Numbered from the stretch's first letter, positions 25,698 through 39,929 are shown. The stretch is 42,294 nt of DNA from a virus (IMGVR_UViG_3300003310_000099:1-42294); one strand, 5' to 3'. Translations and numbers: made by a program. Notes: generated by a model not told the origin, from the sequence alone.

Positions 25698-25716
25698 TTT
25701 TTTTTATATATTGACG

Positions 25717-27200: not shown

Positions 27201-27204
27201 CAAT

Positions 27205-27276
27205 GTCGGTGTAGCCAAGCGGTAAGGCATCAGTCTGCAAAGCTGATTACCGTAGGTTCGAATCCTACCGCCGACT
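27205..27276 (+). tRNA. tRNA-Cys(GCA)
   Basis: canonical cloverleaf GTCGGTG/CGCCGAC, TCAGT-CTGCAAA-GCTGA, GTAGG-TTCGAAT-CCTAC, U73 discriminator; CCA not encoded. Confidence 0.92.
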
Positions 27277-27289
27277 TTAAGGTAATATA

Positions 27290-27493
27290 ATGTTAATCTG
27301 CGATAATGGGAATAAGTGTGGGAAGGGTAAAGTGCCATCATGCACTAACCAAGCCATACATATTATCCATACCGTAGATGACAAAGGCAATATAATAGAA
27401 GGGCCAGTCATCAATTTGTGTGATGAACATTTTGATGTGGCAATGCGGTTGGGACTTGTTACTGAGCCGTATATGGGATACGAAGTAACTTGA
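27290..27493 (+). CDS. small hypothetical protein (Cys/His)
   Basis: 67-aa ORF after tRNA-Cys. Confidence 0.45.
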   Translation: MLICDNGNKCGKGKVPSCTNQAIHIIHTVDDKGNIIEGPVINLCDEHFDVAMRLGLVTEPYMGYEVT

Positions 27494-27517
27494 CAATGCG
27501 GAAAATTGTGGTATAGT
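27490..27517 (+). promoter_or_regulatory. sigma70-type promoter for the Ubl-like gene
   Basis: TTGACA-N16-TATAGT. Confidence 0.7.
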
Positions 27518-27550: not shown

Positions 27551-27784
27551 ATGGAAAATCAAGTAATTGACGCAGTACCTCAGATTCACATTCGCTACGA
27601 CGGTCGTAGCATTGACATTCCTTTGAGCGAAGTAGACGTTGGTGTTCTGTCTACGGACGAACAGATTCGTGCTGCTGTCGCTGAGAACCTTGGTGTGCCA
27701 GTCGGAAAGCTTCGCGCTTTCGCCATCGACCGCAACCAAGAGACGAATCACCTGACCCTTCGTCCAGAAGCGGTTTGGGGTTGA
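27551..27784 (+). CDS. putative ubiquitin-like (beta-grasp) small protein ending in Gly (...LRPEAVWG)
   Basis: 77 aa from ATG 27551 with purine-rich SD; beta-beta-alpha-beta-beta pattern (IHIRY-SIDIP-helix DEQIRAAVAENL-FAID-LTLR); C-terminal Gly. Confidence 0.6.
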   Translation: MENQVIDAVPQIHIRYDGRSIDIPLSEVDVGVLSTDEQIRAAVAENLGVPVGKLRAFAIDRNQETNHLTLRPEAVWG

Positions 27785-27870
27785 AATTTTTGATCCCCAG
27801 GCATGGGGCTGACTTGGTGGGGAGTTATGAAAAGAATTGCCAAGTGATAATTAGGAACCATGCCAAATTT

Positions 27871-28001
27871 GCGGGAGTAGCTGAATAGTAAATAGTTTTT
27901 TATACTTAGACGGGCTAAACTCCGTCTCCGACTTGAAAAACTTACAAACAAGCGTCAGTATTCTAAACTGAAGTATGTGGGTGCGACTCCCACCTCCCGC
28001 T
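27871..28001 (+). ncRNA. module 13 (type B): tRNA-Arg(TCT)-like RNA with Y-like module in the D-loop
   Basis: GCGGGAG/CTCCCGC; GCT/AGC; AGTTTTT/AAAAACT; ACTTAGACGG...CCGTCTCC; CTTACAAAC; TCAGT-ATTCTAA-ACTGA; GTGGG-TGCGACT-CCCAC. Confidence 0.8.
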
Positions 28002-28002
28002 C

Positions 28003-28186
28003 TTTTTCCTGATAGTGCCAGCACCGACCCCGAAATGTTACCAAACAGGGGTGGTAAACGGCGGGTAACACCGCTAGTCCCTTTGACCGCTCAAGAGTTG
28101 GCTGATTACTCTTCGGAGGAAAAACAGCTTTTGGGCAACAACCCTGTTCCTCAACATAAAGTGTTGGGGTGGCCGTTCAGGAAAAA
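28003..28186 (+). ncRNA. unidentified structured RNA
   Basis: 10-bp closing stem TTTTTCCTGA/TCAGGAAAAA; hairpins; TGTTAC/GTAACA loop-loop complementarity. Confidence 0.55.
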
Positions 28187-28187
28187 T

Positions 28188-28254
28188 TCCGTCTCCTAAA
28201 AAGGAAGCTTACAAACTAGCCAATGTTTAACACAGCTTCCTAAACTAAGACGGA
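28188..28254 (+). ncRNA. module 14 (type A): minimal Y-RNA-like RNA
   Basis: TCCGTCT/AGACGGA; AGGAAGCT/AGCTTCCT; CTTACAAAC; T-rich tail. Confidence 0.8.
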
Positions 28255-28277
28255 TTTATTTTTATTTTAAGTGACTT

Positions 28278-28405
28278 GTTTTGTCCCCAATGTTGAGAAC
28301 TTACAAACAATTTGCTCAACGGTAGAGCATCAACCTCCAAAGTTGAAAGTGTTGGTTCAAATCCAGCATTGTTTACCAAAACAGTTTTCAAGACTTGGAC
28401 GAAAC
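28278..28405 (+). ncRNA. module 15 (type A): Y-like stem enclosing an intact tRNA-Trp
   Basis: GTTTTGTCC/GGACGAAAC; GAGAAC/GTTTTC; ACTTACAAAC overlaps the tRNA 5' end. Confidence 0.85.
28305..28378 (+). tRNA. tRNA-Trp(CCA) with encoded CCA end, nested in module 15
   Basis: AAACAAT/ATTGTTT-A-CCA; GCTC-AACGGTA-GAGC; TCAAC-CTCCAAA-GTTGA; GTTGG-TTCAAAT-CCAGC. Confidence 0.8.
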
Positions 28406-28409
28406 GAGA

Positions 28410-28501
28410 TGGCTAGTAGCTTAACGGTAAAGCACTTGCTAAGTCGGGCGTTAAAACCTGACCTGTAAGAAGAAGTAGGGTTCAACTCCCTGCCTGGCCA
28501 C
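28410..28501 (+). ncRNA. tRNA-like RNA with extended anticodon arm
   Basis: TGGCTAG/CTGGCCA; GCTT-AACGGTA-AAGC; CTTGC/GTAAG plus internal loop plus GTCGGG-CGTTAAAA-CCTGAC; TAGGG-TTCAACT-CCCTG. Confidence 0.7.
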
Positions 28502-28503
28502 TT

Positions 28504-28574
28504 TCTGTCCCCTATAGGTAAAACTTACAAACATTACCAATGACGATGCTAAAAGTTTTACAAACTTGGACAGA
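28504..28574 (+). ncRNA. module 16 (type A): minimal Y-RNA-like RNA
   Basis: TCTGTCC/GGACAGA; GTAAAACT/AGTTTTAC; CTTACAAAC. Confidence 0.8.
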
Positions 28575-28592
28575 CTAATATTCAAGAAAATT

Positions 28593-28660
28593 TCCGTCCC
28601 CTATAAGAAGAACTTACAAACACTCAATTATCGTTTAACAGTTCTTTTGACTTGGACGGA
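28593..28660 (+). ncRNA. module 17 (type A): minimal Y-RNA-like RNA
   Basis: TCCGTCC/GGACGGA; GAAGAAC/GTTCTTT; CTTACAAAC; T-run follows. Confidence 0.8.
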
Positions 28661-28680
28661 TTTTTTATTTGCACAGCAAC

Positions 28681-28708
28681 TTGACAGACGCCAAATTTGT
28701 AGTATCAT
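28681..28708 (+). promoter_or_regulatory. sigma70-type promoter for the TROVE gene
   Basis: TTGACA-N16-TATCAT. Confidence 0.7.
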
Positions 28709-28825
28709 GTATGAGTGACAGAAAATGCGAAATATGCAATGAGCCAGCATCATGTTGGTATTATTGCAGTGAGCATCATAGAAGTATTTGTGTAGATGGT
28801 AATAGTCCAAGAGAAGTGAGAGAAA

Positions 28826-28850
28826 AACTAGGACAGGAAACTGTCCCCAA
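28826..28850 (+). promoter_or_regulatory. P1-type hairpin of the array module adjacent to the TROVE SD
   Basis: AACTAGGACAG-gaaa-CTGTCCCCAA then c-AAGGAG-N8-ATG. Confidence 0.7.
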
Positions 28851-28865
28851 CAAGGAGAATTGAAA

Positions 28866-30368
28866 ATGGCTAATACTGAAATTGATACCCGTCTCAACAT
28901 CCTTAACACCCTGTTGACCACTCCTCACTGTAAGCTGGATCAGGTTTACCCGATTCACGCTGAGATGATTAAGCAAGACCCGTTATTCTACGGTCGTTTG
29001 GGTGCATGGTACAATGACACTGGTGACGTTCGTGACCACAAGGAAATGTTCGTCATCAACATGTGCCTGAGTGACTTTGAAGGCCACCGTGACGCTGGAT
29101 TGGCAATGCTGCGTGAAATGCCACCGTACCAGCTTGGCCGTGTCGTAGACTTCATCCACGGTCGTAAGGACACTAAGAAGTCCAAGGCCAAGAAGGGTGA
29201 AACTCCAACCACGACGGTTGAAAACTACGGTTTGTTCAAGAACATTCCGCGTTCCGTCAAGACGGAAGTGGTTCGTTATCTCCGTGAACGTGAAGCGGAA
29301 CCAGAGTGGTTCGATTCTTGCGCCGTCACTGCGCGTAAGTATTTGAAGCGTCTCTATGCTCTCATGCACATTAGCCCAAATGAGCGTGCGCAGAAGATTC
29401 TCTTTGAAGATTTGCCGCCAGAAGATTCCAAGCTGTTCGCAGTGAAGGAACTCTTCAAGGCGAAGACGCCAGCGGAACAGGCCAAGACGATCATGGCGCA
29501 CAAGATTCCGTACCGTATCGCTTCGACGGTCGTTTCTGCCATGACTCCGACCGTACTCTTGGCTTTGATTGAAGTTATGTCGGATATGGAGTTAATCAAT
29601 AACCTTGGTTCTCTCCGTAAGCGTGGTGCATTTGAGAATCCAGACCTCAAGGCACTCATTGAGAAGAAGCTTGAGAAGGCCAAGTCTGGTAAGCGTGTTT
29701 CGGCACTCAAGGCAACTGAAGCCGTTAAGTCGGCTGGTGTTGATGATGCTACGGTCAAGCAACTGGAAGCGGTTGCTGACTCGCAGTTGAAGAAGAAGGG
29801 CCGTATCAATCGCTCTACTGCACTGCTGATTGATAAGTCTGGCTCCATGAGTCAGGCTATCGAATTGGGCAAGCAGATTGGTTCGATGATTTCTGCTATC
29901 ATGGATGCAGATTTGTATGTATACGCTTTCGACACGATGGCGTATCCCCTCAAGGCACAGGGCACCGACCTTGCTTCCTGGGACAAGGCATTGCGTGGTA
30001 TCAACGCTGGGGGTGGAACCTCTTGCGGTGTGCCTCTTGAGTACATGATTCGCAACAAGCAGCTTGCGGAGAACATTATCGTCATCACGGACGAAGGCGA
30101 AAACGGTACTCCTGCATTCGTGCCGACCCTGAAGAAGTACATGGCTGAACTCAAGGCAACCCCTTCTGTCTGCTTTGTAAAGACTACGGGTGCATCGAAT
30201 CAGCTTGAACAGCAGATGCAGCGTGAAGGACTGAACTGTGACGCCTGGCAGTTCAGTGGGGATTACTACAGTCTGCCCAACTTGATCCCCTACCTGTCCA
30301 AGCCATCGAAGGTCGATCTTCTGATGGAAATCATGTGTTACGAAATGCCTGTCCGCAAGACGGCATAA
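28866..30368 (+). CDS. Ro60-like TROVE + vWA domain RNA-binding protein
   Basis: N-terminal helical region (QDPLFYGRL...DVRDHKE; MSDMELINNLGSL resembling the Ro60 MPxxALLRNLG motif) and C-terminal vWA MIDAS (LLIDKSGSM, GGGTSCG, VITDEGEN); SD AAGGAG; biased codon usage (CGT, AAG). Confidence 0.75.
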   Translation: MANTEIDTRLNILNTLLTTPHCKLDQVYPIHAEMIKQDPLFYGRLGAWYNDTGDVRDHKEMFVINMCLSDFEGHRDAGLAMLREMPPYQLGRVVDFIHGRKDTKKSKAKKGETPTTTVENYGLFKNIPRSVKTEVVRYLREREAEPEWFDSCAVTARKYLKRLYALMHISPNERAQKILFEDLPPEDSKLFAVKELFKAKTPAEQAKTIMAHKIPYRIASTVVSAMTPTVLLALIEVMSDMELINNLGSLRKRGAFENPDLKALIEKKLEKAKSGKRVSALKATEAVKSAGVDDATVKQLEAVADSQLKKKGRINRSTALLIDKSGSMSQAIELGKQIGSMISAIMDADLYVYAFDTMAYPLKAQGTDLASWDKALRGINAGGGTSCGVPLEYMIRNKQLAENIIVITDEGENGTPAFVPTLKKYMAELKATPSVCFVKTTGASNQLEQQMQREGLNCDAWQFSGDYYSLPNLIPYLSKPSKVDLLMEIMCYEMPVRKTA

Positions 30369-30390
30369 GAATAGCCGCTGTTCCGCCAAG

Positions 30391-30428
30391 AACAACAATA
30401 TCCACTGTAAAAGGTGGATATTGTTGTT
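30391..30428. terminator. terminator hairpin after the TROVE gene
   Basis: 15-bp inverted repeat AACAACAATATCCAC/GTGGATATTGTTGTT. Confidence 0.75.
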
Positions 30429-30575
30429 TATAGACACTATAATAAGGATTATGAGAGAATTCGTAATAGGTTTTGTTTGCTGTTTTATTTTCATAACCAT
30501 GTTTGGTTGGGTGTCGGCATTGATCTTGTTGGTGGCGTCCATTATTGGCTGGTTATTGATTTCTAAGGGAGATTA

Positions 30576-30929
30576 ATGAATAATGATACAAAGTTTTATT
30601 ATATGGGTCGTGAGCATGGTATAAACGATCAGTGTAATAAGCGTACAAATTTAGTGGAAAATATAAATTCTATGCCTAATCACCCTTGCAAAAGGGTATA
30701 TCCAGCCAAATATTTGGAAGGATATGCAGATGGCTATGAATTAGCAAAAGATAAATATTGGTATATTGTTTCAGTTGCAAATTCCAAAGTTAGCTCGTAT
30801 TATGCGGAAGGTTCTTGGGTTGAAGACAAAGACCAAGCTACTAAATATACTACCAGGGCAGCTTTGGAAGCAGTAATTAAAAGACTTCCAGGTTATCGTG
30901 CTGGTAAGTGCGGTATGAAATTTGAATAA
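30576..30929 (+). CDS. hypothetical protein
   Basis: SD GGGAG; 117 aa. Confidence 0.6.
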   Translation: MNNDTKFYYMGREHGINDQCNKRTNLVENINSMPNHPCKRVYPAKYLEGYADGYELAKDKYWYIVSVANSKVSSYYAEGSWVEDKDQATKYTTRAALEAVIKRLPGYRAGKCGMKFE

Positions 30930-30971
30930 AGGAGAATTGCCAATGTCACTATAGATTTTAATGAAATCAGG

Positions 30972-31445
30972 ATGAAAATGACCAAGACTATTCAACTATT
31001 AGAAGACCAGTTGAAAGGCATAAGAAGATCATCCATCAGTCCTGGTTTTATCGAAACCTTGAAAGTTCCTTACTACGGGCAGATGACTCCCATTCGTTTT
31101 GTGGGGACCGTAGGCAGGTGTCAGGCTGGCATTACTATAACACCGCATGACCCGAACTTGGTGAACAGTATTGCTAAGTCGTTACAAGAGGATAATTTGC
31201 TGAACGCTTATGCGTTCTCAAAAACAACAGTTGTGGTAAGTGTCCCACCTGCTAACACAGGTGAGATTGAAAGAATAAAGTCGCATATCAGGAAATTAGG
31301 CGAAGATGCCAAGATTTCTATCAGGAATTTAAGGAAAAGTGTAAGACAAAATTTGTCCAAGGAAGAACAAAAAGAAATAGATAAGGATTTGCAACTTTTG
31401 ACAGAGGAACATTGCAATAAAATTGAGGATATTATCAATGACTAA
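30972..31445 (+). CDS. frr: ribosome recycling factor homolog
   Basis: LKGIRRSSISPGFIETLKVPYYG...VSVPP...AKISIRNLR...LQLLTEEH pattern of RRF. Confidence 0.85.
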   Translation: MKMTKTIQLLEDQLKGIRRSSISPGFIETLKVPYYGQMTPIRFVGTVGRCQAGITITPHDPNLVNSIAKSLQEDNLLNAYAFSKTTVVVSVPPANTGEIERIKSHIRKLGEDAKISIRNLRKSVRQNLSKEEQKEIDKDLQLLTEEHCNKIEDIIND

Positions 31446-31653
31446 AGAAGAGATTTTAGGGTTGGAAAAACTGGAAACAGAGGCTCAATGGAATGAGGCT
31501 GTTGACCTTTTGGATACTTACATCATGGAAAGGTTCAATACTTTGACGAATACTGAACATGATGAGTTAGATAGACTTTCCGACCTTATTTATGAATATG
31601 AAGAACGTAATGACATGCTATTCAGCGAAGATTTTGAAGAGGGTGAAGTATGA
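31438..31653 (+). CDS. hypothetical protein resembling the HigA-type antitoxin N-terminal helical hairpin
   Basis: TEAQWNEAVDLLD...HDELDRLSDLIYEYE; no HTH follows. Confidence 0.45.
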   Translation: MTKEEILGLEKLETEAQWNEAVDLLDTYIMERFNTLTNTEHDELDRLSDLIYEYEERNDMLFSEDFEEGEV

Positions 31654-31922
31654 TCGTTAATTATGATGAAGTGGTGCGGCAAATGGAAATTAGGTCTGGT
31701 ATCAACAGGATGCCGCTTGAGGATATTGAATGGGTCAGGGATGACGGCACCAAAATTGAATTTGATCCCAAACTTGTGGACGAATTCAAGTTTATTGGTT
31801 TGAACAATATCAGTTTTGTAGAGTTTTTTCTTTCCAGAGTTGTAGGAGGTGAAGAAAAACAATTATTGGAAGAATTGGAGTGGAAAGAAGAAATATACAA
31901 AAAATCCGAGAAGAAAGCTTAG
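31650..31922 (+). CDS. hypothetical protein
   Basis: ATGA overlap, 90 aa. Confidence 0.6.
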   Translation: MIVNYDEVVRQMEIRSGINRMPLEDIEWVRDDGTKIEFDPKLVDEFKFIGLNNISFVEFFLSRVVGGEEKQLLEELEWKEEIYKKSEKKA

Positions 31923-31956
31923 CTGTACCTAGTACATAGATGAAATTGGAGTAAAA

Positions 31957-32160
31957 ATGAATCTTGTCAAGAATTCGATGTATAAAGTGAAACACACTCA
32001 TCCCGATCATCCAGGTAGGATTGGCAGGTTTGAGTTTTTAGGCGGTCCTAGAGCCGAATTTATTCTTCTATCAGACTACATTGATCCACTGCGTCTTTTT
32101 GCTGTTGGATTGTATGACATAGTAGACTTTGATCCCAAAGTTGATAATGTTGTGGAGTAA
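31957..32160 (+). CDS. hypothetical protein
   Basis: SD GGAG; 67 aa. Confidence 0.6.
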   Translation: MNLVKNSMYKVKHTHPDHPGRIGRFEFLGGPRAEFILLSDYIDPLRLFAVGLYDIVDFDPKVDNVVE

Positions 32161-32165
32161 TTCAA

Positions 32166-32744
32166 ATGGGTCGTTTAAAGTGGGAAATTGTTAAGCATCC
32201 TGGTCCGCTTCGTGGTGATGATTGGTATAAGGCGGGTCCGCTTATTAACATTGACCTGATGGATTTATGCGAAGGTAGATTTTGGGGTGGGCATCGTATT
32301 TATATGCAAATTGGGTTTTCGATCCATAAGCTCAGGGGTAAAAATTATCCAAATATTAACTGGACTCACCAGTTAATAGCTCCAAATGGCGTTCATATTT
32401 ACGTTACTAGTGTAGAAGAAGGTAAGGAAATTGCCGAAGTTATTTATGCCAGAATCCTGGCACCGTTAATTGCGGCGGAAAAGGAAACACCTATTGTCAG
32501 AATGCTTCTTCTGAATAAGGAGAAGAACAAGCAAGCAAAGTTGGAAGCTTTGCTCAGAGAAAGAAAAATTGACGGACGAGTGTATTATTCCAACAAGAAT
32601 CCAAAGGGCTGGATGCACATTTGGACCCAGGATCATGGGCCACAGAGATTGGGCTGGGATTATGCCTCTGCTGTCGAGCTAATTGAAAAGGGCACGATGG
32701 ACTTTATGGCCCGTGATAGTGACTTTATGAAGGCTAAATTATGA
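32166..32744 (+). CDS. hypothetical protein
   Basis: 192-aa ORF in operon. Confidence 0.6.
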   Translation: MGRLKWEIVKHPGPLRGDDWYKAGPLINIDLMDLCEGRFWGGHRIYMQIGFSIHKLRGKNYPNINWTHQLIAPNGVHIYVTSVEEGKEIAEVIYARILAPLIAAEKETPIVRMLLLNKEKNKQAKLEALLRERKIDGRVYYSNKNPKGWMHIWTQDHGPQRLGWDYASAVELIEKGTMDFMARDSDFMKAKL

Positions 32745-33709
32745 AAATCCTATATGCAGTTGCTAATCATCCACAACTTTCTGAGGGATATGTAGAATCG
32801 GAAATAAGGTTTGTGGAACAGTCGGGCATAGAAGTTGCTGTTTGGTCAAAAAGACCACCTGGCGCGAAGTATCCCATTACTCGTAAACTCTATGAAGGCA
32901 AGCTTTCAGAAGCAGAAAGTGATTTTAAGCCCGATTTTGTTCATTTTCATTGGCTTACTTTTGCTGCCGAAAATATAGTTGATGTAAAGTCTCCTGTTAC
33001 CATAAGAGGTCATTCTTTTGATTATGATGTAAAAAGGATCAATAAGTTGTGTGTGATGGAACAGGTTAAGGGGATTTTTCTTTTCCCGCATCAAGCTGAA
33101 ACTGTTAGTCATCCCAAGATTGTCCCACTTAAAGTTGGTTATGATAGCAGCAGGTATTCGTTAGAGTTAAATAAGAATAGACGACAAGTAGTCCGTTGCT
33201 GTGCCGCAAGACCGATGAAAGGATTGTTTGATTTTTTAAGTATTGCAAAACTGTGTCCAGACTTTGAGTTTAATCTTTGTGTTGCTGAAGTTTCAGGGGC
33301 TGCAAGTTTTATTCCAAAGCTTAATGAATTTGCAAAGAAAGAAAATAGTCCAGCAAAGATCAGGATAAGTGTACAACCTCCTGAAATGGCTCAGTTAATG
33401 CGAACATCAGGCATTCATGCCCATACTCTTGATCTTCCACAAAACGTTGGCATGTGTATATCGGTGGCGGAAGGTATGGCCTGTGGCAATTATACAATAA
33501 CGAGAGACACGGTTCCACTAACACAAATGATTACTGGAGTCGGTGACACTTATAATACAGTTGCGGAAGCTGCCAAGTTGGTCAATGCCACAAAAAGCTG
33601 GGATGATAAGAAATGGAAAGACATGGCTGATTCAACTGCCTTACAAGCATTACAGTTTGCTGATTTTAATGTATTCCCAGCCATAATTAAAAAGTGGAAT
33701 GAAGCATGA
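32741..33709 (+). CDS. glycosyltransferase (GT-B, family 4-like)
   Basis: PDFVHFHW, KGLFDFLSIAKLCPD, ISVAEGMACG. Confidence 0.75.
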   Translation: MKILYAVANHPQLSEGYVESEIRFVEQSGIEVAVWSKRPPGAKYPITRKLYEGKLSEAESDFKPDFVHFHWLTFAAENIVDVKSPVTIRGHSFDYDVKRINKLCVMEQVKGIFLFPHQAETVSHPKIVPLKVGYDSSRYSLELNKNRRQVVRCCAARPMKGLFDFLSIAKLCPDFEFNLCVAEVSGAASFIPKLNEFAKKENSPAKIRISVQPPEMAQLMRTSGIHAHTLDLPQNVGMCISVAEGMACGNYTITRDTVPLTQMITGVGDTYNTVAEAAKLVNATKSWDDKKWKDMADSTALQALQFADFNVFPAIIKKWNEA

Positions 33710-34473
33710 AGGTAGCGGTTTTCTCAATATGCCATAATGAGGAAGTTTTCTTGCCTTATTTTTTTAGGCATTATAAGTCTTTTGCGGATTATATTGTGGT
33801 GCTGGATAATCATTCCACAGATAATTCTTTTGATATTTGTAAGCGGGAAAGTAGTCATGTAGAAAAGCTAGACTCTGATGGTTTACATAATATTGATCTA
33901 ATGACTTCCTTGAAAAACAGTTATTGGAAGTCTCTCAAGGATTATGATTGGGTTTTCATTGTAGATATTGATGAAATTGTTTATCATCCTGACATGCGTG
34001 CTTTCTTGGATAAATCTAGAGCAAGACGGTATACTGTACTGAAGCCTACAGCTTATCAGATGGTTTGTGAAGCTTATCCAACAGGAGATGGACAGATCAC
34101 TGATATAATGCCATTCGGAGTGTTATCGACAAAGGAAGTGTGCCAGGCATTAATGTCTTGCGATATATTTGATAAAAAGTGTGTTATAAATCCCAAAGAG
34201 ATTAAGGAAACTAAATACGGGCATGGCGCACATGTGGCTAAAATGACTGGTCGTGTCAAGGGATTGTCTGACCCGAATTTGAAATTGTTGCATTACAGAT
34301 TTTTGGGGTTAGATTATTCACTTGCCAAAAATAAAATGAGAGCCAAAAGACTTATTGCCGAGTCAGTTGCAAAGGGTAGCAGTGTCCATTACCTGAAATC
34401 AGAGGAAGAGTTAATTGAGGCTTTTCAAAAAGCGATGAGCGATAGAGTTAATGTCAAAGAAATTGGAGTATAA
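33706..34473 (+). CDS. glycosyltransferase (GT-A, family 2/92-like)
   Basis: CHNEEVFLPYFFRHY, VVLDNHSTD, DWVFIVDIDE. Confidence 0.8.
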   Translation: MKVAVFSICHNEEVFLPYFFRHYKSFADYIVVLDNHSTDNSFDICKRESSHVEKLDSDGLHNIDLMTSLKNSYWKSLKDYDWVFIVDIDEIVYHPDMRAFLDKSRARRYTVLKPTAYQMVCEAYPTGDGQITDIMPFGVLSTKEVCQALMSCDIFDKKCVINPKEIKETKYGHGAHVAKMTGRVKGLSDPNLKLLHYRFLGLDYSLAKNKMRAKRLIAESVAKGSSVHYLKSEEELIEAFQKAMSDRVNVKEIGV

Positions 34474-35415
34474 ATGAACGTTTTTGACAAACTTGCGGCA
34501 GAAGAAGCGGCTTTTTTCAATTCACAATTGTTTTCTCCTGTTATTAAGGGGAAGCCGATCAGGGTCCGTATTTCTGGTGTTATTGTGACTTTGAGCGTCA
34601 CCAAGCCTAAGAATTTTGAAGGCTGGGGCGTCTTTGCACCTTCATCTGCCAAGACCGCCAAGTTTGTCCGTGAACCAAACATGACTGAGAAGCAGAGTTA
34701 TTTTAACCTGTTTCCATCTTTAAGGCTGATTCTGTGCCGCCGTACTAATGACCAATGGTTTGGTATTCCTGCCAACCAATCTGATAACAGGTTCAAGATT
34801 ACTGGTACTGTACCTATCAATCTTTGTACAGAAGTGCAGATGTTTGATATGGTACAGGTGCGTTTTGATGGCACCAATATCTGGTTTGAACAAATTGATC
34901 CAAGGCACAGTTTGAAAGCTGCGGCCTATCTGCGTGAATCCGTTATCAAGTTTCTTGATGCAGCCAAGCTTGAGCTTCCAGGCTTGACAATTGAGGAACG
35001 TGATGCGTATTTGATTGCTTTGAACGACGCATTAGCAGCAGATGCCGAAGCCCGCCGTGACAAGCAAGAAGAACGTATTCAGAAGGCATTGGCATTGACT
35101 GGAGCTAAGTACCAAAGTTATATTGAGCGTGGCGACACGTTTACCATTGAGTACATGGTCGGTCGTGAGCGTCACCGTTCTGTAGTCAAGAAGGATAATT
35201 TGGCTGTAGAATCAGCTGGTATCTGTTTGGCAGGTACTGATAGGAACTTTGACCTTCAAAGTTTGGTTGGTGTTATCAGGGAAGGTCAGCGTGGCCGTAG
35301 GATTGTTCGTGTTGGCGATAACCGTCAATTCGGCAATCCTAATGAATATGGTTACGAACAAGAGGATTACAACCGCCAATTAGACGGTGGCGGCTATGAT
35401 GAGGATGATTACTAA
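34474..35415 (+). CDS. conserved-looking hypothetical protein
   Basis: 313 aa; SD GGAG; same codon bias as the TROVE gene. Confidence 0.7.
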   Translation: MNVFDKLAAEEAAFFNSQLFSPVIKGKPIRVRISGVIVTLSVTKPKNFEGWGVFAPSSAKTAKFVREPNMTEKQSYFNLFPSLRLILCRRTNDQWFGIPANQSDNRFKITGTVPINLCTEVQMFDMVQVRFDGTNIWFEQIDPRHSLKAAAYLRESVIKFLDAAKLELPGLTIEERDAYLIALNDALAADAEARRDKQEERIQKALALTGAKYQSYIERGDTFTIEYMVGRERHRSVVKKDNLAVESAGICLAGTDRNFDLQSLVGVIREGQRGRRIVRVGDNRQFGNPNEYGYEQEDYNRQLDGGGYDEDDY

Positions 35416-35738
35416 TGAGAATCTGTGATATCATCAAACCCAATATACCTTGCCGCTTGGAACACCCCATTGTTGGTGAGGTATATTGGGGCATCAAGGA
35501 CGGTTGTTGGGGTTTGTATTTTGCCAAGGGTTATGATGCTCATAAATTCCTTGTCGCTGATGATGCCGTTTTAATGAGTGATGAATGGAAGCAAACAAAC
35601 AAGTTAAGCTCTGAAGACTTGGCTGGACTTATCGCTGACGCACTCATTCCCAAGTTCTTTATGAAGGAATGGTACGCTAAGGCGGTTAAAGTTATTGCTG
35701 AGGAAATTGACGCTAGAAAGGCAATGGGTGACTACTAA
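35415..35738 (+). CDS. hypothetical protein
   Basis: TAATG overlap. Confidence 0.6.
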   Translation: MRICDIIKPNIPCRLEHPIVGEVYWGIKDGCWGLYFAKGYDAHKFLVADDAVLMSDEWKQTNKLSSEDLAGLIADALIPKFFMKEWYAKAVKVIAEEIDARKAMGDY

Positions 35739-36430
35739 TGATGAATGAACAGTGTTGGGTTTTGGTTGGGGGAATTAATGGCGACCTTTGGTGGGGTGAG
35801 AAGTTTGGTCCTCAACATGAAGGTACGCCTGCCAGTGTTGCTTTTGACCCAGACTTTGTAACTAAGCGTGAAGAGGAACATGGTGATGTGGTAGGATTTA
35901 TCCACACTCACCCAAGTTTTACTGCGCATTATAGTATGCGTGATGATCGCACCATGAAGGCTTGGGTTTTATCTTTGGGTAAGCCTCTTGTCTGTTGTAT
36001 TATTGGCACGGATGGGCTGCGCGCATTTTGGTACAACAATGACGAAGACCCGCCAACTGAGGAAACAGTTCACTCTCTTCGTGGTGCGATCTTTGGGCTT
36101 ACACCACCAGAAGATTTTGAGCCTGAAAAAGATGATTTTTCAGATTTGATTATTGATGAACCACCACCTAGTCTGGGTGTAAACCAGCTTGTAAAGGTTA
36201 TTGCTGGTAAACATCAAGGGGTAGAAGGTAGAGTACAGTTTTATCAGACTGAAGGTGAAGGCGGGAGAATAAGGGTACGTCTTGCTGATGGTAGCCAAAT
36301 CTATGTTGATAAAGAAGATATAGATTTTAAGTTTGAGTATATCGACGCAGAGGTAATGATGGATGAAGAGGAACGTGAAGCTTTCCATCAGCAAATCAAG
36401 GAAATAAAAGAAGGTGAATATTTATCATGA
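35738..36430 (+). CDS. JAB/MPN+ (JAMM) metalloprotease with C-terminal KOW-like domain
   Basis: VVGFIHTHPSFTAHYSMRD = HxH-x7-S-x2-D; LVKVIAGKHQGVEGRV (KOW). Confidence 0.8.
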   Translation: MMNEQCWVLVGGINGDLWWGEKFGPQHEGTPASVAFDPDFVTKREEEHGDVVGFIHTHPSFTAHYSMRDDRTMKAWVLSLGKPLVCCIIGTDGLRAFWYNNDEDPPTEETVHSLRGAIFGLTPPEDFEPEKDDFSDLIIDEPPPSLGVNQLVKVIAGKHQGVEGRVQFYQTEGEGGRIRVRLADGSQIYVDKEDIDFKFEYIDAEVMMDEEEREAFHQQIKEIKEGEYLS

Positions 36431-36609
36431 ATATGTTTGAAATAGTTTTACATTGTATTTACATTACAATATGTGTTACCAGAGTCCTTAAACATCCATT
36501 ATTCACAACGGATTTCGTGGCCCGTAAACTGTGGTTTGATTGGATAAGTTTTCTATGGTTTGCTTTAGGACTTGCAACCTTTATCAACTTGGTTTACTCG
36601 CTGTTATAA
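36427..36609 (+). CDS. small membrane protein
   Basis: two hydrophobic segments. Confidence 0.5.
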   Translation: MNMFEIVLHCIYITICVTRVLKHPLFTTDFVARKLWFDWISFLWFALGLATFINLVYSLL

Positions 36610-36618
36610 GGAGTAATC

Positions 36619-36867
36619 ATGAAAGTGCCATACAACAAGGAAGCGATCATTGAGTGTATGTCGCAAGTGCTGCCAGATCAAGGTGGTGACTTAGAAGCGT
36701 GGATTGATAGAGAATTTGCAAGATTTAGGCAAATGGGTCGCAAGTTACCTGCACAGATTAGTCTGAATACTTTACAAAGTGCCTGGATTGGAAGATATAA
36801 ACGACGTGGTGGGAGTATGGGTGGTTGTGTCAATGGGCGTGTCATTCGTTCTGCAAAGGGGTTATAA
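36619..36867 (+). CDS. hypothetical protein
   Basis: SD AAGGAG. Confidence 0.6.
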   Translation: MKVPYNKEAIIECMSQVLPDQGGDLEAWIDREFARFRQMGRKLPAQISLNTLQSAWIGRYKRRGGSMGGCVNGRVIRSAKGL

Positions 36868-37545
36868 ATGAGCCGTTTCTTTGTCCCAATCACTGTGGAT
36901 GAATTAAAAAAGAAAGTTGATGATGCTCTTGGCGAAGATGGTTATGATTATCGCCATCTGACTCCAACGATAGAAAAAGATTTAGATAAGGTCAATTTCA
37001 GCACAGAGAATCTGGAAGCTGAAAATGGTTATGGCTCAGTTAAAGATTTAGTCGGTTATCATATGTTGTCTAATGGAATGCCAATTTTGGGTATTTCAGC
37101 AGGTGGTGATTGGGAATACCCGATGTTCTTCTGCATCTATTTTGATGGGAAGAAATTGAGGGCTTATATCCCAGAAAAAGGCAATACCTGGAACACAGAC
37201 ACCAAAGAAGCCTATGGCAATGATAATGTTGCTGATTTAAAGAACGCAAGGAAGCGTTGGCCTGACCAATATCCTACTGATGTAGAGGCTGATGAAGATG
37301 AGGACGTTGAGCCAATCGGCAATACTGATGAAATTGCCAAGGATATCATGGACCGTATCGTTAAGAAGACGGAACCACAGAAGAATGTTGTGGTAAAGTT
37401 GACCCTGGAACCAGTTGCAGGTTGGGATAGTAATGCTATTGAAACTTTGATTAAAGCTTCAAATGGTTGCAATATCCCAGGCTTGGGCAATGTTTATCAA
37501 GGAACCAGAGTGATTGCTCAGATTACTAAGGTGGAAATTAAATGA
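36868..37545 (+). CDS. hypothetical protein
   Basis: 225-aa ORF in operon. Confidence 0.65.
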   Translation: MSRFFVPITVDELKKKVDDALGEDGYDYRHLTPTIEKDLDKVNFSTENLEAENGYGSVKDLVGYHMLSNGMPILGISAGGDWEYPMFFCIYFDGKKLRAYIPEKGNTWNTDTKEAYGNDNVADLKNARKRWPDQYPTDVEADEDEDVEPIGNTDEIAKDIMDRIVKKTEPQKNVVVKLTLEPVAGWDSNAIETLIKASNGCNIPGLGNVYQGTRVIAQITKVEIK

Positions 37546-37727
37546 TTTCTAAAGAACAACTTGATAAAATGGACACGCCTACTCTTGAAAAAGAAATCAA
37601 GAGTAGGCGTGAATTAATGGATCAAATGGTAGGGTGGCTTTATCCTGCAATCCTCAGAGATGAGATTATTCAGCTTTCTGAGCGTTTACAACAGAGTGAA
37701 CTTTCTAGGCTTATCCCTCGCAGCTAA
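37542..37727 (+). CDS. hypothetical protein
   Basis: ATGA overlap. Confidence 0.5.
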   Translation: MISKEQLDKMDTPTLEKEIKSRRELMDQMVGWLYPAILRDEIIQLSERLQQSELSRLIPRS

Positions 37728-39197
37728 CCAAGCCTGGAATTCTTTTTCTTTCGTAACGTCATCTGCTGGTTGTGGTTTCTTTCCAGCGATAATACCCATT
37801 GTCTTTAATTTGTCTAAATCAAAAGGTACAGGTGTAGCAGTTTTCTCTCCAGCAACATCGGTATAAGGTGCCAAAGCTGACTTGCCTGCTGCTTTCAAGT
37901 AATCTCCGCTGCACATACTTGGGTATTTTCTGCAATAAGCTTCGATTTCATCAAACTTGCCAATGAGTCTTTTATAATGCGGGGACTTGGCAAGTTGCAT
38001 TTTTTCATAATCGGAAAGTTCACCAGATAAAAGACCAGCTATAACACGCTGTTCATCCTTATACATGGCTTTAGTTTTGGCATAACCACCAGTCATATTC
38101 TTTTTACTTAAATTTCTTTTATCAATAAGTTCATTAGCTCTTTGAACGAATGCACTATTCTCTGGGTAATTGGTTATGCTTGGGTCATTTGGCTGTACGA
38201 CGAAACCACTAGTTCCAATGAATTTATTATCATTGGTGCTATAGCTTTCAAATGCAGATGCGCCCTTAGCTGTTAGCCCAATAACCAATCCTGGTTTGCC
38301 TTTTGGTTGTTTTTCCAAGAATCTTAGGTCATGCTTGTCGCCGTTTATTACTTTGAATCCGTTCCATACAGCAGGCAATAGTGGTCTGCCATCTGGATAT
38401 GTTAAGGTTTCTTTATTATGTGTTTTTCCAGGGCCGAATACTACTGCAACATTGTGACCTTGTTGGAGCATTTGTAATGCTTGTGCATCATTATTTTCTG
38501 AACGGGAGAAGGTTAAATGATAATTGTCTGGGGTTGTACCTACCCTCGGTGCTACTTTGGTGTAATCATAGAACATAATGTCTGGGAAACGTTCCATGAG
38601 GGTGCGGCCATCTTCATCTCTCATATTTTCCCAATGCAGGTCGCTGGTGCCGTTTAATCTTACAACCAGTTTATTTCCTCTTTCTGTCACTCTATCCCTT
38701 AGTCCATAAAGAAATTTAGCCATGTTGGAGATGACGTGAGGCATTTCTTTGGCTAGAAACCAAGTCTTTTTTAACCTTGCTGAAGTTTTATCAGCTAATG
38801 CACCTATATTGCCAGAAGTTTGTAAGCAAGTTGATTTACAACCGCCAGATGCACATGGACAGGTAACGAATCCAGATTGAGCGGCAGGTGTTAAATGGAC
38901 AACAAAGCTTTCATAACCATTTGCATTGCCTAAAGTGCGGTTCATTACATGACGATTAATTCCAGGTAATTTAGACATTTTACCTTCCTGGCTTACAAGG
39001 TCGCTTTTACTAGTTTTGGGATTTTTGGAAAAGAAATCTCTAGCTCTGGAACGCCAAGGGGCTTTTTTTCTGCCAGTTTCAAATTCTGAGCGGTCATCTT
39101 CAAGTAAATACTCTGAGCCATAAAGACAATTATTGAAATTGGTGTAATATTTAATATCTTCATTGACAGAAGTAAAAAACTTGAATCCTGTGAGCAT
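37686..39197 (-). CDS. GP88-like phage protein with Cys cluster (CPCASGGCKSTC)
   Basis: VRLNGTSD, FYDYTK, NYHLTFS, NVAVVF, GDKHDLRF motifs; start re-assigned to ATG 39197 (TAAATA-N4-ATG, MLTGFKFF). Confidence 0.65.
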   Translation of the reverse strand: MLTGFKFFTSVNEDIKYYTNFNNCLYGSEYLLEDDRSEFETGRKKAPWRSRARDFFSKNPKTSKSDLVSQEGKMSKLPGINRHVMNRTLGNANGYESFVVHLTPAAQSGFVTCPCASGGCKSTCLQTSGNIGALADKTSARLKKTWFLAKEMPHVISNMAKFLYGLRDRVTERGNKLVVRLNGTSDLHWENMRDEDGRTLMERFPDIMFYDYTKVAPRVGTTPDNYHLTFSRSENNDAQALQMLQQGHNVAVVFGPGKTHNKETLTYPDGRPLLPAVWNGFKVINGDKHDLRFLEKQPKGKPGLVIGLTAKGASAFESYSTNDNKFIGTSGFVVQPNDPSITNYPENSAFVQRANELIDKRNLSKKNMTGGYAKTKAMYKDEQRVIAGLLSGELSDYEKMQLAKSPHYKRLIGKFDEIEAYCRKYPSMCSGDYLKAAGKSALAPYTDVAGEKTATPVPFDLDKLKTMGIIAGKKPQPADDVTKEKEFQAWLAARDKPRKFTLL

Positions 39198-39234
39198 GAA
39201 GTATTTAGTGAAATGCACGAAAAAATGGATGAAG

Positions 39235-39262
39235 TTGACAAAGTGGGAAAAAGTAGTATAGT
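39235..39262 (+). promoter_or_regulatory. sigma70-type promoter for the E1/ThiF gene
   Basis: TTGACA-N16-TATAGT. Confidence 0.7.
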
Positions 39263-39281
39263 AAGCATCATGGAGGGCAAA

Positions 39282-39929
39282 ATGGCAAATAGCAAGTTCC
39301 ATCACGAAGAGATTTATCGCGGCAAGAATCTTGCAGAAAGACTTGCTGTGCCCATTACGGTATGTGGTGCAGGTTCTATTGGCAGTAATCTTGTTGACAA
39401 CCTGACTCGTCAAGGGTTCAGCAAACTCACTGTTATTGACATGGACCGTGTTGAAGTCCATAATCTCAATACTCAGATTTATGCTGAGGCCGATGTTGGT
39501 GCGCTCAAGGTGGATGCACTCAAGAACCGTATTTTCCGTAATATTGGCGTTGAAATTGAAGCAGTAAACAAGGAAATGACTGCCGCAAATGTAAAGCAAT
39601 TATTAAAGAAGGCAAGTGTTGTCGTTGATTGTTTTGATAACAACAAGGCGCGTCAATTGGTTCAAACTTTCGTAAGGGAGAAGCGTACTTCTTGTTTACA
39701 CGTTGGTTTGAATGGGGATTATGGGGAAGTTATCTGGGACGAAAAGTACCGTGTGCCCAAGGACCAGACTGACGGTGATGTTTGTGATTATCCACTTGCT
39801 CGCAATATCGCAATGTTGGCTGTTATTGTTGCAACTGAAGAACTTTTGAGTTTCCAATTGGAGCAGCCGCCAAGGTTATCTAATTGGAGCATTACTCTCA
39901 AGGATTTGGCGATCAAGAAATTTTCTTGA
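39282..39929 (+). CDS. ThiF/MoeB/E1-like adenylating enzyme
   Basis: CGAGSIG, IDMDRVEVHNLNTQ, KVDAL, VVDCFDN; Cys in GDVCDYP; start at ATG 39282 after GGAGG. Confidence 0.9.
   Translation: MANSKFHHEEIYRGKNLAERLAVPITVCGAGSIGSNLVDNLTRQGFSKLTVIDMDRVEVHNLNTQIYAEADVGALKVDALKNRIFRNIGVEIEAVNKEMTAANVKQLLKKASVVVDCFDNNKARQLVQTFVREKRTSCLHVGLNGDYGEVIWDEKYRVPKDQTDGDVCDYPLARNIAMLAVIVATEELLSFQLEQPPRLSNWSITLKDLAIKKFS

What the first reader, a model, noticed from the sequence alone, without database searches (positions are those of the whole stretch)
27551..39929. Dispersed ubiquitin-like conjugation set: Gly-terminated Ubl candidate, JAB protease and E1/ThiF
Seen: a 77-aa protein ending LRPEAVWG with its own promoter inside the RNA array (27551), a complete JAMM motif protein (35738) and a ThiF/E1-like enzyme with a C-terminal Cys (39282). 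No thiamine or molybdopterin pathway genes occur in the window. Established: E1 + Ubl + JAB are the core of prokaryotic Ubl systems, including sulfur-carrier pathways and the antiphage Bil system, which also needs an E2. Inference: the phage carries a Ubl pathway linked to the Ro/RNA locus, acting in protein tagging, tRNA thiolation, or reversal of host Ubl defence by the JAB. From memory, similar ...RPEAVFG proteins occur in bacterial operons with this vWA family and ThiF; this needs a search to confirm. No E2 is recognisable here.
Basis: partly seen in the sequence, partly recalled or inferred. Interest (0 to 1): 0.8.

Follow-up and report, generated by a model that had tools for sequence, protein, structure and literature searches.

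The report
Ubiquitin-like module tied to Ro60-like particle
The three scattered genes are real and belong to one conserved, unnamed gene set, shared by huge phages and hundreds of bacterial species, that joins a small ubiquitin-like protein, its activating enzyme and its trimming protease to a Ro60-like RNA-binding protein, a cysteine-bearing RNA-binding-type protein and tRNA genes.

Summary
Observation confirmed. The window is the first 42 kb of a 373-kb phage record. It encodes a 77-aa beta-grasp protein ending RPEAVWG-stop, an intact JAMM peptidase and a short ThiF-type E1.

These are not chance neighbours. That partner has two OB-like barrels and a C-terminal domain with a near-invariant Cys. 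A Ro60-like TROVE-vWA protein is present in 55 of the 60 loci and a JAB in 21. The loci come from huge phages, Planctomycetota, cyanobacteria, Obscuribacterales, Chloroflexota and Myxococcota.

- 83 of 85 homologues stop exactly at RPEAV[F/Y/W]G.
- A few carry tails after the Gly, and one is fused head-to-tail to the Ro60-like protein.
- tRNA or tRNA-like genes flank the Ubl gene in 56 of 84 loci.
- The window copy is the same operon stretched by insertions. Its Ubl and E1 genes carry the same rare promoter form.

Best reading (about 0.5): E1-driven covalent tagging within a Ro60-like RNA particle, with JAB as trimmer and eraser and the Cys protein as an E2-like carrier (inferred). A sulfur-carrier role is not excluded.

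No recognised E2, thiamine, molybdopterin or tRNA-thiolation genes were found. I found no paper describing the link. This scan has already found the same cassette on other genomes.

The parts
27104..27276 (+). tRNA-Leu(UAG) and tRNA-Cys(GCA) genes just upstream of the Ubl gene; part of the tRNA/tRNA-like RNA context of the cassette
   Evidence: ARAGORN and Rfam tRNA hits. Same-strand tRNA or tRNA-like genes flank the Ubl gene in 56 of 84 related loci.
27490..27517 (+). Promoter-like site TTGACA-N16-TATAGT in front of the Ubl gene
   Evidence: 11 of 12 consensus positions with an extended -10 TG. One of only 4 exact sites of this form in the 373-kb genome.
27551..27784 (+). Ubiquitin-like protein, 77 aa, ending RPEAVWG-stop
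28305..28378 (+). tRNA-Trp(CCA) between the Ubl gene and the Ro60-like gene
28860..30368 (+). Ro60-like TROVE-vWA protein, 502 aa, with an intact MIDAS motif (D325-x-S-x-S)
   Evidence: Pfam vWA_Ro60 1.3e-4, below the cut-off. PDB TROVE-domain protein 9l5y 4e-5 and Ro60 9nen 0.047. PHROG 850 RNA-binding protein 3e-6. Present in 55 of 60 loci. A natural Ubl-linker-Ro60-like fusion exists, P0070.
30972..31445 (+). Ribosome recycling factor homologue inserted in the cassette (accessory; shared with the closest phage, L003)
   Evidence: Pfam RRF 1.1e-23. 78% identical copy at the same place in L003.
32166..32744 (+). X192, an accessory protein of unknown fold, kept in this phage clade only
   Evidence: tblastn and profile hits only in L001 and L003, at the same position. 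No Pfam, PHROG or PADLOC family.
34474..35415 (+). X313, the universal third partner: two OB/S1-like barrels plus a C-terminal helix / four-strand / Cys-loop / helix domain with near-invariant Cys251 in the motif SAGICLSGxDxxFDLxSLVGV
35415..35738 (+). X107, a small ORF overlapping both neighbours by start/stop; weakly conserved
   Evidence: Only a 28-residue tblastn match in L001. No family.
35738..36430 (+). JAB/JAMM metallopeptidase (residues 1-130) with a 100-aa C-terminal extension peculiar to this copy
   Evidence: Pfam Prok-JAB 8e-8. PADLOC JAB 2e-5. Complete HxH-x7-S-xx-D motif. The only JAB in the genome. Stand-alone JAB in 22 loci (21 of the 60 with enough flank), plus one X313-JAB fused ORF in L044.
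36868..37545 (+). X225, an accessory protein of this phage clade; it directly abuts the E1 gene in LR756511
   Evidence: 52-65% identical copies in L001 and L003. No family and no Atlas hit.
39235..39262 (+). Second promoter-like site of the same rare form (TTGACA-N16-TATAGT) in front of the E1 gene
   Evidence: 3 exact sites in the window against 0.01 expected.
39282..39929 (+). Short ThiF-type E1 (215 aa from the RBS-preceded ATG; the open frame starts at 39213)
   Evidence: Pfam ThiF 7e-31. NCBIfam ThiF-type models up to 3e-29, all below their cut-offs. PDB ThiF-type, TcdA, SAE2, Uba4 and MoeB. Invariant GxGxxG, DxD, K99, D139/D142, C161 and C191. The only ThiF in the genome.

Best explanation
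The window holds one stretched copy of a conserved, unnamed cassette: tRNA or tRNA-like genes, Ubl, Ro60-like TROVE-vWA protein, a Cys-bearing OB-fold protein (X313), an optional JAB, and a short E1.

Proposed working:
1. The E1 adenylates the free C-terminal Gly of the 77-aa beta-grasp protein.
2. The activated Ubl is passed on covalently, probably through E1 Cys191 and then X313 Cys251, which would act as an RNA-binding E2-like carrier.
3. It is attached to a protein of the Ro60-like RNA particle: the Ro60-like protein, X313 itself, or a protein bound to the same RNAs.
4. The JAB peptidase exposes the Gly in capped or fused precursors and removes the tag again.

The phage copy groups with the Planctomycetota/Myxococcota type. 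It would be used during infection together with the phage's own tRNA and Y-like RNA set.

Shown here: the genes, their folds or motifs, and their tight co-inheritance. Inferred: adenylation, the thioester relay, the E2-like role of X313 and the target.
For: Co-inheritance:
- Same order and strand in phages and five bacterial phyla. Of 60 Ubl loci with at least 7.5 kb downstream, X313 is in 54, E1 in 53, vWA in 55 and JAB in 21.
- L004 has a compact Ubl-vWA-X313-JAB-E1 operon. Obscuribacterales have overlapping minimal Ubl-X313-E1 operons.

Ubl hallmarks:
- Beta-grasp model.
- Gly in 85 of 85 homologues, and 83 of 85 end exactly there.
- 9 of 22 metagenomic homologues carry short variable tails after the Gly.
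- Three longer forms keep the motif internally, including a Ubl-linker-Ro60-like fusion that is 53% identical to the window's protein over its whole length.

Enzymes:
- The E1 keeps the adenylation residues and an invariant Cys191.
- The JAB motif is complete.
- X313 has one near-invariant Cys, in a loop between a four-strand meander and a helix. The Cap2 E2 domain and FANCL RWD are among its structural neighbours.

In this phage:
- The Ubl and E1 genes carry two of the genome's four TTGACA-N16-TATAGT sites.
- No sulfur-pathway partner genes are present in the phage.
Against: - No biochemical step is shown.
- The Ubl ends aromatic-Gly, not Gly-Gly.
- The E1 family has Thr where relatives have the Arg of the NLxRQ motif, so its chemistry may differ.
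- The E1's best family scores are to sulfur-carrier adenylyltransferases.
- JAB is absent from all Nostoc-type loci, so deconjugation is not a universal part of the system.
- No target is identified.
Confidence: 0.5

Rival explanations
1. Sulfur-carrier pathway. The E1 adenylates the Ubl, which becomes a thiocarboxylate and donates sulfur to the neighbouring tRNAs or tRNA-like RNAs, as in TtuB/TtuC or Urm1/Uba4. X313 would be the RNA-binding sulfur-acceptor or relay protein through Cys251.
For: - The E1's best family matches are ThiS/MoaD-type adenylyltransferases (3e-29).
- The E1 is short, like ThiF/MoeB.
- The cassette is embedded in tRNA genes, and X313 has RNA-binding-type OB barrels and one conserved Cys.
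- By established knowledge, Thermus TtuB and archaeal SAMPs combine tRNA thiolation with a JAMM peptidase.
Against: - There is no PP-loop thiouridylase (ATP_bind_3), cysteine desulfurase or rhodanese in the cassette or in the phage genome.
- All ThiF/MoeB model scores are below their cut-offs.
- The terminus is aromatic-Gly rather than the Gly-Gly of known sulfur carriers.
- Capped and fused precursors plus a JAB fit a conjugation-type Ubl better.
- Host enzymes could still supply the sulfur.
Confidence: 0.2
2. E2-independent tagging, as in archaeal SAMP/UbaA. The E1 alone transfers the Ubl to lysines. X313 is not an enzyme but the RNA-binding adaptor or the main substrate, and its conserved Cys serves another purpose such as metal binding, redox or structure.
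For: - No recognised E2 family is present in the cassette or genome.
- The E2-like fold of X313 is unproven.
- The E1 has its own invariant Cys.
Against: - X313 is kept as faithfully as the E1, even in minimal three-gene operons with overlapping genes.
- Its single near-invariant Cys sits in the most conserved motif of the protein. That is more typical of a catalytic residue than of a substrate.
Confidence: 0.15
3. Phage counter-defence. The JAB, with or without the E1, strips or hijacks host Ubl-based immunity such as Bil or type II CBASS, and the small protein is a decoy.
For: - The genes are phage-borne.
- The E1 and JAB give weak matches to CBASS/defence E1-E2 and JAB models in PADLOC.
Against: - The same cassette, with its own Ubl, sits in vertically inherited chromosomal positions in Nostocales and Planctomycetota.
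- JAB is its most dispensable member.
- The Ubl, X313 and E1 co-vary as a set.
Confidence: 0.05
4. The Ubl is transferred to RNA rather than to protein. The activated Gly carboxylate is esterified to the 3' end of the neighbouring tRNA-like RNAs, by X313 or directly. The chemistry would parallel aminoacylation.
For: - The Ubl gene is embedded among tRNA or tRNA-like genes in most loci.
- X313 joins 3'-end-handling-type OB barrels (RNase II/R, exosome cap, S1 neighbours) to a Cys domain.
- The partner is an RNA-ring protein.
Against: This is pure inference, and no precedent exists in prokaryotes. The Ubl-Ro60-like fusion points to a protein-protein relation.
Confidence: 0.05
5. ThiF-dependent peptide natural product. 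The small protein is a precursor whose C-terminus is modified by the ThiF-like enzyme, as in the microcin C type.
For: ThiF-like adenylyltransferases act on peptide C-termini in RiPP pathways (review PMC12250964, seen).
Against: - The 77-aa protein is a well-folded beta-grasp conserved along its whole length.
- No export, immunity or tailoring genes are conserved nearby.
- The constant partners are RNA-binding proteins.
Confidence: 0.02

Closest known systems
Bacterial Ubl-conjugation systems with E1, E2 and JAB: Bil (BilABCD), type II CBASS Cap2/Cap3, and Bub operons (PMC10097602, PMC10557695, PMC11601596)
   Same: A small beta-grasp Ubl with a C-terminal Gly, sometimes made as a capped or fused precursor. 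A ThiF-fold E1 and a JAB/JAMM peptidase sit in one operon. A further conserved partner carries a single catalytic-looking Cys.
   Different: - No recognisable UBC-fold E2 family.
- The E1 is a stand-alone 212-215-aa adenylation domain, not an E1-E2 or JAB-E1 fusion.
- The constant partners are a Ro60-like TROVE-vWA protein, an OB-fold protein and tRNA genes.
- The cassette is not in PADLOC as a system.
- It sits in stable chromosomal positions rather than in defence islands.
E2-independent prokaryotic Ubl systems: archaeal SAMP1-3/UbaA/HvJAMM1 and Thermus TtuB/TtuC with a JAMM peptidase (PMC4443979, PMC2948915)
   Same: A minimal set of Ubl, short E1 and JAMM. There is a link to tRNA biology, and a dual tagging and sulfur-carrier role is possible.
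   Different: - The terminus is aromatic-Gly, not Gly-Gly.
- There is no thiouridylase partner.
- An extra obligatory Cys-bearing OB-fold protein and a Ro60-like protein are present.
Ro60 (Rsr) with Y RNAs in bacteria and phages (Rsr-YrlA/YrlB, Deinococcus Rsr-Y RNA-PNPase)
   Same: A TROVE-vWA ring-type protein is encoded beside tRNA-like non-coding RNAs, and the arrangement occurs in both phages and bacteria.
   Different: The protein is very divergent: Pfam vWA_Ro60 is below the cut-off and PDB Ro60 scores only 0.047. Instead of RtcB/RtcA or PNPase, it is coupled to a Ubl, an E1 and a JAB.
PRTRC cassette (ParB-related, ThiF-related cassette; NCBIfam TIGR03736 and partners)
   Same: A short ThiF-family protein together with a JAB-like and a small Ubl-like protein on mobile DNA.
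   Different: The PRTRC_ThiF model scores 53.9 bits against a cut-off of 144.75. No other PRTRC model matches any cassette protein, and there is no ParB.

Membership tests
Ubiquitin-like modifiers / sulfur carriers (beta-grasp Ubl activated by an E1) | Beta-grasp fold | tested here: met
Ubiquitin-like modifiers / sulfur carriers (beta-grasp Ubl activated by an E1) | Conserved C-terminal Gly, exposed at the very end or after processing | tested here: met
   Gly in 85 of 85 homologues, and 83 of 85 end at it. Tails or fusions after the Gly occur in a minority.
Ubiquitin-like modifiers / sulfur carriers (beta-grasp Ubl activated by an E1) | Gly-Gly terminus (ThiS, MoaD, SAMP, TtuB, ubiquitin) | tested here: not met
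   The penultimate residue is F, Y or W in all 85.
Ubiquitin-like modifiers / sulfur carriers (beta-grasp Ubl activated by an E1) | Adenylation of the C-terminus by the cognate E1 | not testable with these tools
   Needs biochemistry or a complex prediction. Only co-inheritance is shown.
E1 / ThiF-MoeB adenylyltransferase superfamily | ThiF-fold adenylation domain with GxGxxG, DxD, the catalytic Asp and a conserved Cys after the core | tested here: met
   Pfam ThiF 7e-31. Invariant G52/G54/G57, D76/D78, K99, D139/D142 and C191. One deviation: Thr87 where PDB relatives have the Arg of NLxRQ.
ThiF or MoeB proper (thiamine / molybdopterin pathways) | Score above the equivalog cut-off, and pathway partners ThiG/ThiS or MoaE/MoaD present | tested here: not met
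   All NCBIfam equivalog scores are below their cut-offs (102 vs 159, 89 vs 275, 59 vs 377). ThiG and MoaE are absent from the genome.
Bil / Cap2-Cap3 / Bub type conjugation systems | UBC-fold E2 with a catalytic Cys (or Ser) | tested here: inconclusive
Bil / Cap2-Cap3 / Bub type conjugation systems | JAB/JAMM peptidase in the operon | tested here: met
   Prok-JAB 8e-8 with a complete motif. It is present in only 21 of 60 related loci.
JAMM/MPN+ metallopeptidases | E...HxH-x7-S-xx-D metal-binding motif | tested here: met
   HTHPSFTAHYSMRD preceded by a Glu-rich stretch. The motif columns are conserved in 23 family members.
Ro60 / TROVE-vWA proteins | TROVE ring region followed by a vWA domain with MIDAS | tested here: inconclusive
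   vWA_Ro60 scores 22.4 bits, below the cut-off of 27.7. PDB TROVE-domain protein 4e-5 over residues 186-416 and Ro60 0.047. MIDAS DxSxS...T...D is conserved. The N-terminal ring was not modelled here.
PRTRC cassette | PRTRC_ThiF above its cut-off, plus PRTRC A-F and ParB proteins | tested here: not met
   53.9 bits against a cut-off of 144.75, and no other PRTRC model hit.
tRNA-thiolation Ubl systems (TtuA/TtuB/TtuC, Ncs6/Urm1/Uba4) | PP-loop thiouridylase partner and a sulfur source (rhodanese domain or cysteine desulfurase) | tested here: not met
   No ATP_bind_3 or Aminotran_5 in the phage genome. No rhodanese domain on the E1. No such gene is conserved in the bacterial neighbourhoods. Host enzymes are not excluded.

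The most novel reading that the evidence does not exclude
The cassette is a new kind of ubiquitin-like system that works on an RNA particle. X313 would use its OB barrels to hold the 3' end of the array's tRNA-like RNAs and its Cys domain to pass the E1-activated Ubl onto the RNA itself (an ester at the 3' end, chemically like aminoacylation) or onto the Ro60-like ring only when a given RNA is bound. The JAB would erase the mark. This would be the first RNA-directed Ubl transfer in prokaryotes and their viruses.
Probability: 0.08. Interest if true: 0.95.

Novelty: new variant of a known kind. Interest (0 to 1): 0.78.

Why it matters
Prokaryotic ubiquitin-like conjugation is so far known from archaeal sampylation, Pup, and three antiphage systems (CBASS Cap2/Cap3, Bil, Bub). 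Ro60/Y RNA particles are known as RNA quality-control devices with no link to protein tagging.

A fixed, widely inherited gene set that joins the two would open a direct route to several questions. It occurs in huge phages and in about 370 bacterial species representatives, including Nostoc.
- What do Ro60-like particles do in bacteria?
- Why do huge phages carry tRNA and Y-like RNA arrays?
- How can Ubl transfer work without a canonical E2?

The set has a minimal three-gene form and very sharp sequence hallmarks: RPEAV[FYW]G-stop, E1 Cys191 and X313 Cys251. It is therefore easy to test by reconstitution and point mutants.

Tried and rejected
Gene contexts of the metagenomic Ubl homologues could not be read, so the search for related loci on viral and genome collections was used instead.
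- PRTRC membership: rejected.
- ThiF/MoeB proper: rejected.
- Known defence systems: no PADLOC system. Only generic E1-E2 and JAB model hits.
- PHROGs: nothing for the Ubl, X313, X192, X225 or X107.
- E2 search: Pfam UQ_con and Prok-E2_A/B/D in the phage genome gave only sub-threshold noise.
- Pfam scan of 31 X313 C-domains at E up to 10 gave no recurrent family.
- PDB profile searches with A2 and A3 gave nothing.
- hhalign against two cyanobacterial Prok-E2_D proteins gave probability 0.1. Prok-E2_A and Prok-E2_B were not found in the genomes sampled, so no better E2 profile could be built.
- ESM Atlas gave no usable hit for the X313 C-domain or for X225.
- Search for longer (fused) X313 forms: none (weak evidence). 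The one X313-JAB fused ORF (L044) lies in a locus whose vWA gene is broken into fragments, so it may be an assembly error.
- All-against-all clustering of neighbours found no further gene conserved across phyla. It found only a Nostoc-specific 240-aa protein and antisense shadow ORFs.
- Literature: eight full-text searches found no paper linking TROVE/Ro60 with a Ubl, E1 or JAB. One preprint lists Ro60 and three ThiF genes in Asgard viruses without linking them. The library covers open-access papers only.
- The careful maximum-likelihood tree did not finish, so a quick tree was used.

Full report
WHAT IS IN THE WINDOW

The window is bases 1-42294 of a 373-kb virus record estimated 98% complete. 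Its closest public relative in the phage collection is the 595-kb uncultured phage LR756511.1.

- The 77-aa ORF runs from ATG 27551 to stop 27784. It has AGGAGG upstream and ends LRPEAVWG.
- The 230-aa product of 35738-36430 matches Prok-JAB (8e-8) and carries a complete HxH-x7-S-xx-D motif.
- The frame 39213-39929 matches ThiF at 7e-31. Its likely start is ATG 39282, which follows a GGAGG.

The genome has only this one ThiF and this one JAB. It has no ThiG, MoaE, PP-loop thiouridylase, cysteine desulfurase or recognised E2 family.

THE SMALL PROTEIN IS UBIQUITIN-LIKE

A search of 5.8 billion clustered proteins found 21 homologues. Their alignment has an invariant C-terminal TLRPEA-x-x-G. Thirteen of the 22 rows end at the Gly, and nine carry short, unrelated tails after it.

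A pattern scan of one genome per prokaryotic species found 372 relatives. In the 85 loci I could read, the Gly is present in 85 of 85, and 83 of 85 genes stop right after RPEAV[F/Y/W]G.

Searching longer proteins found three forms in which the motif is internal. One is a 603-aa protein made of the Ubl, a 27-residue linker and a full Ro60-like protein 53% identical to the window's. A free Gly end, occasional caps and a head-to-tail fusion are the classic marks of an E1-activated, peptidase-matured Ubl.

THE GENES ARE ONE CASSETTE

tblastn and iterated profiles over 85 loci give the same order on one strand: Ubl, Ro60-like vWA protein, a 275-370-aa protein (X313; window 34474-35415), JAB, E1.

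The loci comprise 5 huge-phage loci plus the window and 80 bacterial loci. The bacterial ones come from Planctomycetota, Nostocales and other cyanobacteria, Obscuribacterales, Chloroflexota, Myxococcota and one proteobacterial MAG.

Among the 60 loci with at least 7.5 kb downstream of the Ubl gene:
- X313 occurs in 54.
- E1 occurs in 53, always together with X313.
- The vWA protein occurs in 55.
- JAB occurs in 21.

Phage L004 has the compact five-gene form with overlapping stops and starts. Obscuribacterales have a minimal overlapping Ubl-X313-E1 operon. A clean JAB profile finds no JAB in any Nostoc-type locus.

No other gene is conserved across phyla. NCBI names these proteins only 'hypothetical', 'vWA domain-containing' and 'ThiF family adenylyltransferase'.

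In the window the cassette is stretched to 12.4 kb, the longest Ubl-to-E1 distance in the set. The inserted material is:
- RNA modules and tRNAs;
- a ribosome-recycling-factor gene;
- two glycosyltransferase genes;
- three clade-specific ORFs (X192, X107, X225);
- an opposite-strand GP88-family gene.

A quick tree of the vWA protein puts the five phage copies in one group (aLRT 94) on the Planctomycetota/Myxococcota side (99), apart from the cyanobacteria. Within the bacteria the tree follows taxonomy.

THE PARTNERS

X313 has no Pfam, NCBIfam, PHROG, PADLOC or PDB sequence match. Its AF2 model (pLDDT 87.8) shows two parts.
- Residues about 16-150 form two OB-like barrels. Their neighbours are exosome cap proteins, RNase II/R, ribosomal S1 and the Mpa interdomain (Foldseek E 7e-4 to 2e-2).
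- After a long helix comes a domain of four strands, a loop and a helix. The loop carries the family's strongest motif, SAGICLSGxDxxFDLxSLVGV. Cys251 is present in 59 of 61 members and G249 in 61 of 61.

The E1 keeps GxGxxG, DxD, Lys99, Asp139/142 and two invariant cysteines, C161 and C191 (the latter in CxYPLARN). It has Thr where its PDB relatives have the Arg of NLxRQ.

The 502-aa protein matches a solved 'TROVE domain-containing protein' (4e-5) and Ro60 (0.047), and keeps a full MIDAS motif.

RNA CONTEXT AND EXPRESSION

Same-strand tRNA or tRNA-like genes lie within 1.5 kb upstream or 3 kb downstream of the Ubl gene in 56 of 84 loci. They include:
- arrays of 6-12 tRNAs in planctomycete-type and related loci (L010, L018, L037, L077);
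- a CUA-anticodon tRNA-like gene 100-240 nt upstream of the Ubl gene in Nostoc-type loci.

In the window the Ubl gene sits between tRNA-Cys and tRNA-Trp. In this phage the exact form TTGACA-N16-TATAGT occurs only four times in 373 kb, against 0.01 expected per window. The four sites lie in front of the Ubl gene, the E1 gene, the tRNA island at 42131 and a ClpX homologue at 155 kb. These are consensus matches, not proof of transcription. They do suggest that the separated Ubl and E1 genes are switched on together.

MECHANISM

The evidence fits an E1-driven covalent transfer of the Ubl within a Ro60-like RNA particle.
- X313 would be an RNA-binding carrier using Cys251.
- The JAB would be the trimmer and eraser.
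- The Ro60-like protein, X313 or RNA-bound proteins would be the targets.

Only the parts list and their co-inheritance are shown. Every chemical step is inferred.

The main rival is a sulfur-carrier role towards the neighbouring tRNAs. In its favour are the E1's family scores and the tRNA context. Against it are the non-Gly-Gly end, the caps and fusions, and the lack of any thiolation partner.

An E2-independent, SAMP-like mode with X313 as adaptor or substrate is also open. A counter-defence deubiquitinase is unlikely, because the JAB belongs to the cellular cassette and is its least constant member.

COMPARISON AND NOVELTY

The module works like the Bil, Cap2/Cap3, Bub and SAMP systems, but fails or leaves open their defining E2 or Gly-Gly features. 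It is neither PRTRC nor ThiF/MoeB proper.

Eight full-text searches found no description of a Ro60/TROVE link to a Ubl, E1 or JAB.

This scan's notebook shows that the same cassette was found and followed up several times on other genomes. I reached the same anatomy independently before reading those notes. One of them is marked 'part of it fell' without saying which part, so I keep the claims to what was tested here.

Noticed in passing
window 27490-27517, 39235-39262, 42005-42032; genome 155038-155065 (L092): The exact promoter-like form TTGACA-N16-TATAGT, with similar spacers, occurs only 4 times in the 373-kb genome. The sites lie before the Ubl gene, the E1 gene, the tRNA island (tRNA-Met, Val, Pro, Lys, His, Lys) and a ClpX homologue (zf-C4_ClpX plus AAA_2). 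This may be a small co-regulated set that links the Ubl to an unfoldase.
   Followed up: partly
window 30972-31445 (also L003 about 13897): A ribosome recycling factor homologue (Pfam RRF 1.1e-23, 157 aa) sits inside the cassette between the Ro60-like gene and X192. It is at the same place in the closest phage relative.
   Followed up: partly
P0070 (603 aa, JGI metagenome contig of 6.7 kb): A natural head-to-tail fusion of Ubl (ending RPEAVFG), a 27-aa Arg-rich linker and a full Ro60-like TROVE-vWA protein. P0069 and P0072 are Ubls with 130-155-aa extensions after the Gly, one with a weak DUF6847 match. A gene-calling or sequencing artefact is not excluded for single contigs.
   Followed up: partly
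L078 9811-9884 and the same place in about 30 Nostoc-type loci: ARAGORN calls a tRNA-like gene with a CUA (amber-reading) anticodon, labelled 'tRNA-Pyl', 100-240 nt upstream of the Ubl gene. A second tRNA-like gene (GAA, UGA or UAA anticodon) lies before the vWA gene. Whether these are decoding tRNAs or Y-RNA-type mimics was not examined.
   Followed up: no
L010 2033-3367; L018 2650-3904; L037 8438-9972; L077 1301-2417: Arrays of 6-12 same-strand tRNA genes lie directly upstream of the Ubl gene in planctomycete-type and related bacterial contigs. They mirror the phage arrangement.
   Followed up: no
window 36128-36430 (JAB residues about 131-230): The window's JAB has a 100-aa C-terminal extension that is absent from the LR756511 copy and from the bacterial JABs (112-187 aa). 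It includes a Gly/Val-rich stretch that looks KOW/SH3-like by eye. Not tested.
   Followed up: no
window 39471 region (E1 residue 87 of the 238-aa frame): The whole E1 family (58 of 59) has Thr where solved relatives (9egb, TcdA) have the Arg of the NLxRQ nucleotide-binding motif. R79 and R66 are invariant nearby.
   Followed up: partly
window 25645-26208: An HNH-AP2 homing-endonuclease-type gene (AP2 3e-8, HNH 2e-3) lies inside the RNA array upstream of the Ubl gene.
   Followed up: no
window 37686-38996 (minus strand) and 40182-40919: A GP88-family gene (2.7e-35) on the opposite strand splits the JAB/X225 block from the E1 gene. A SIMPL/DUF541 protein with a signal-like N-terminus follows the E1.
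   Followed up: no
L044 12485-13993: A single 502-aa ORF joins X313 and JAB. The same locus has a fragmented vWA gene, so it may be an indel artefact of a long-read assembly rather than a true fusion.
   Followed up: partly
literature: 10.1101/2021.07.29.454249: Nidhogg viruses of Asgard archaea are reported to encode a Ro60 (TROVE plus vWA) and three ThiF/E1-like proteins. The paper does not connect them, and I did not examine whether they are neighbours.
   Followed up: no
L078 10482-11204 and 32 other Nostoc-type loci: A 240-aa protein with no known family lies between the Ubl and vWA genes in Nostocales only. A 255-aa ORF follows the vWA gene in L078.
   Followed up: no
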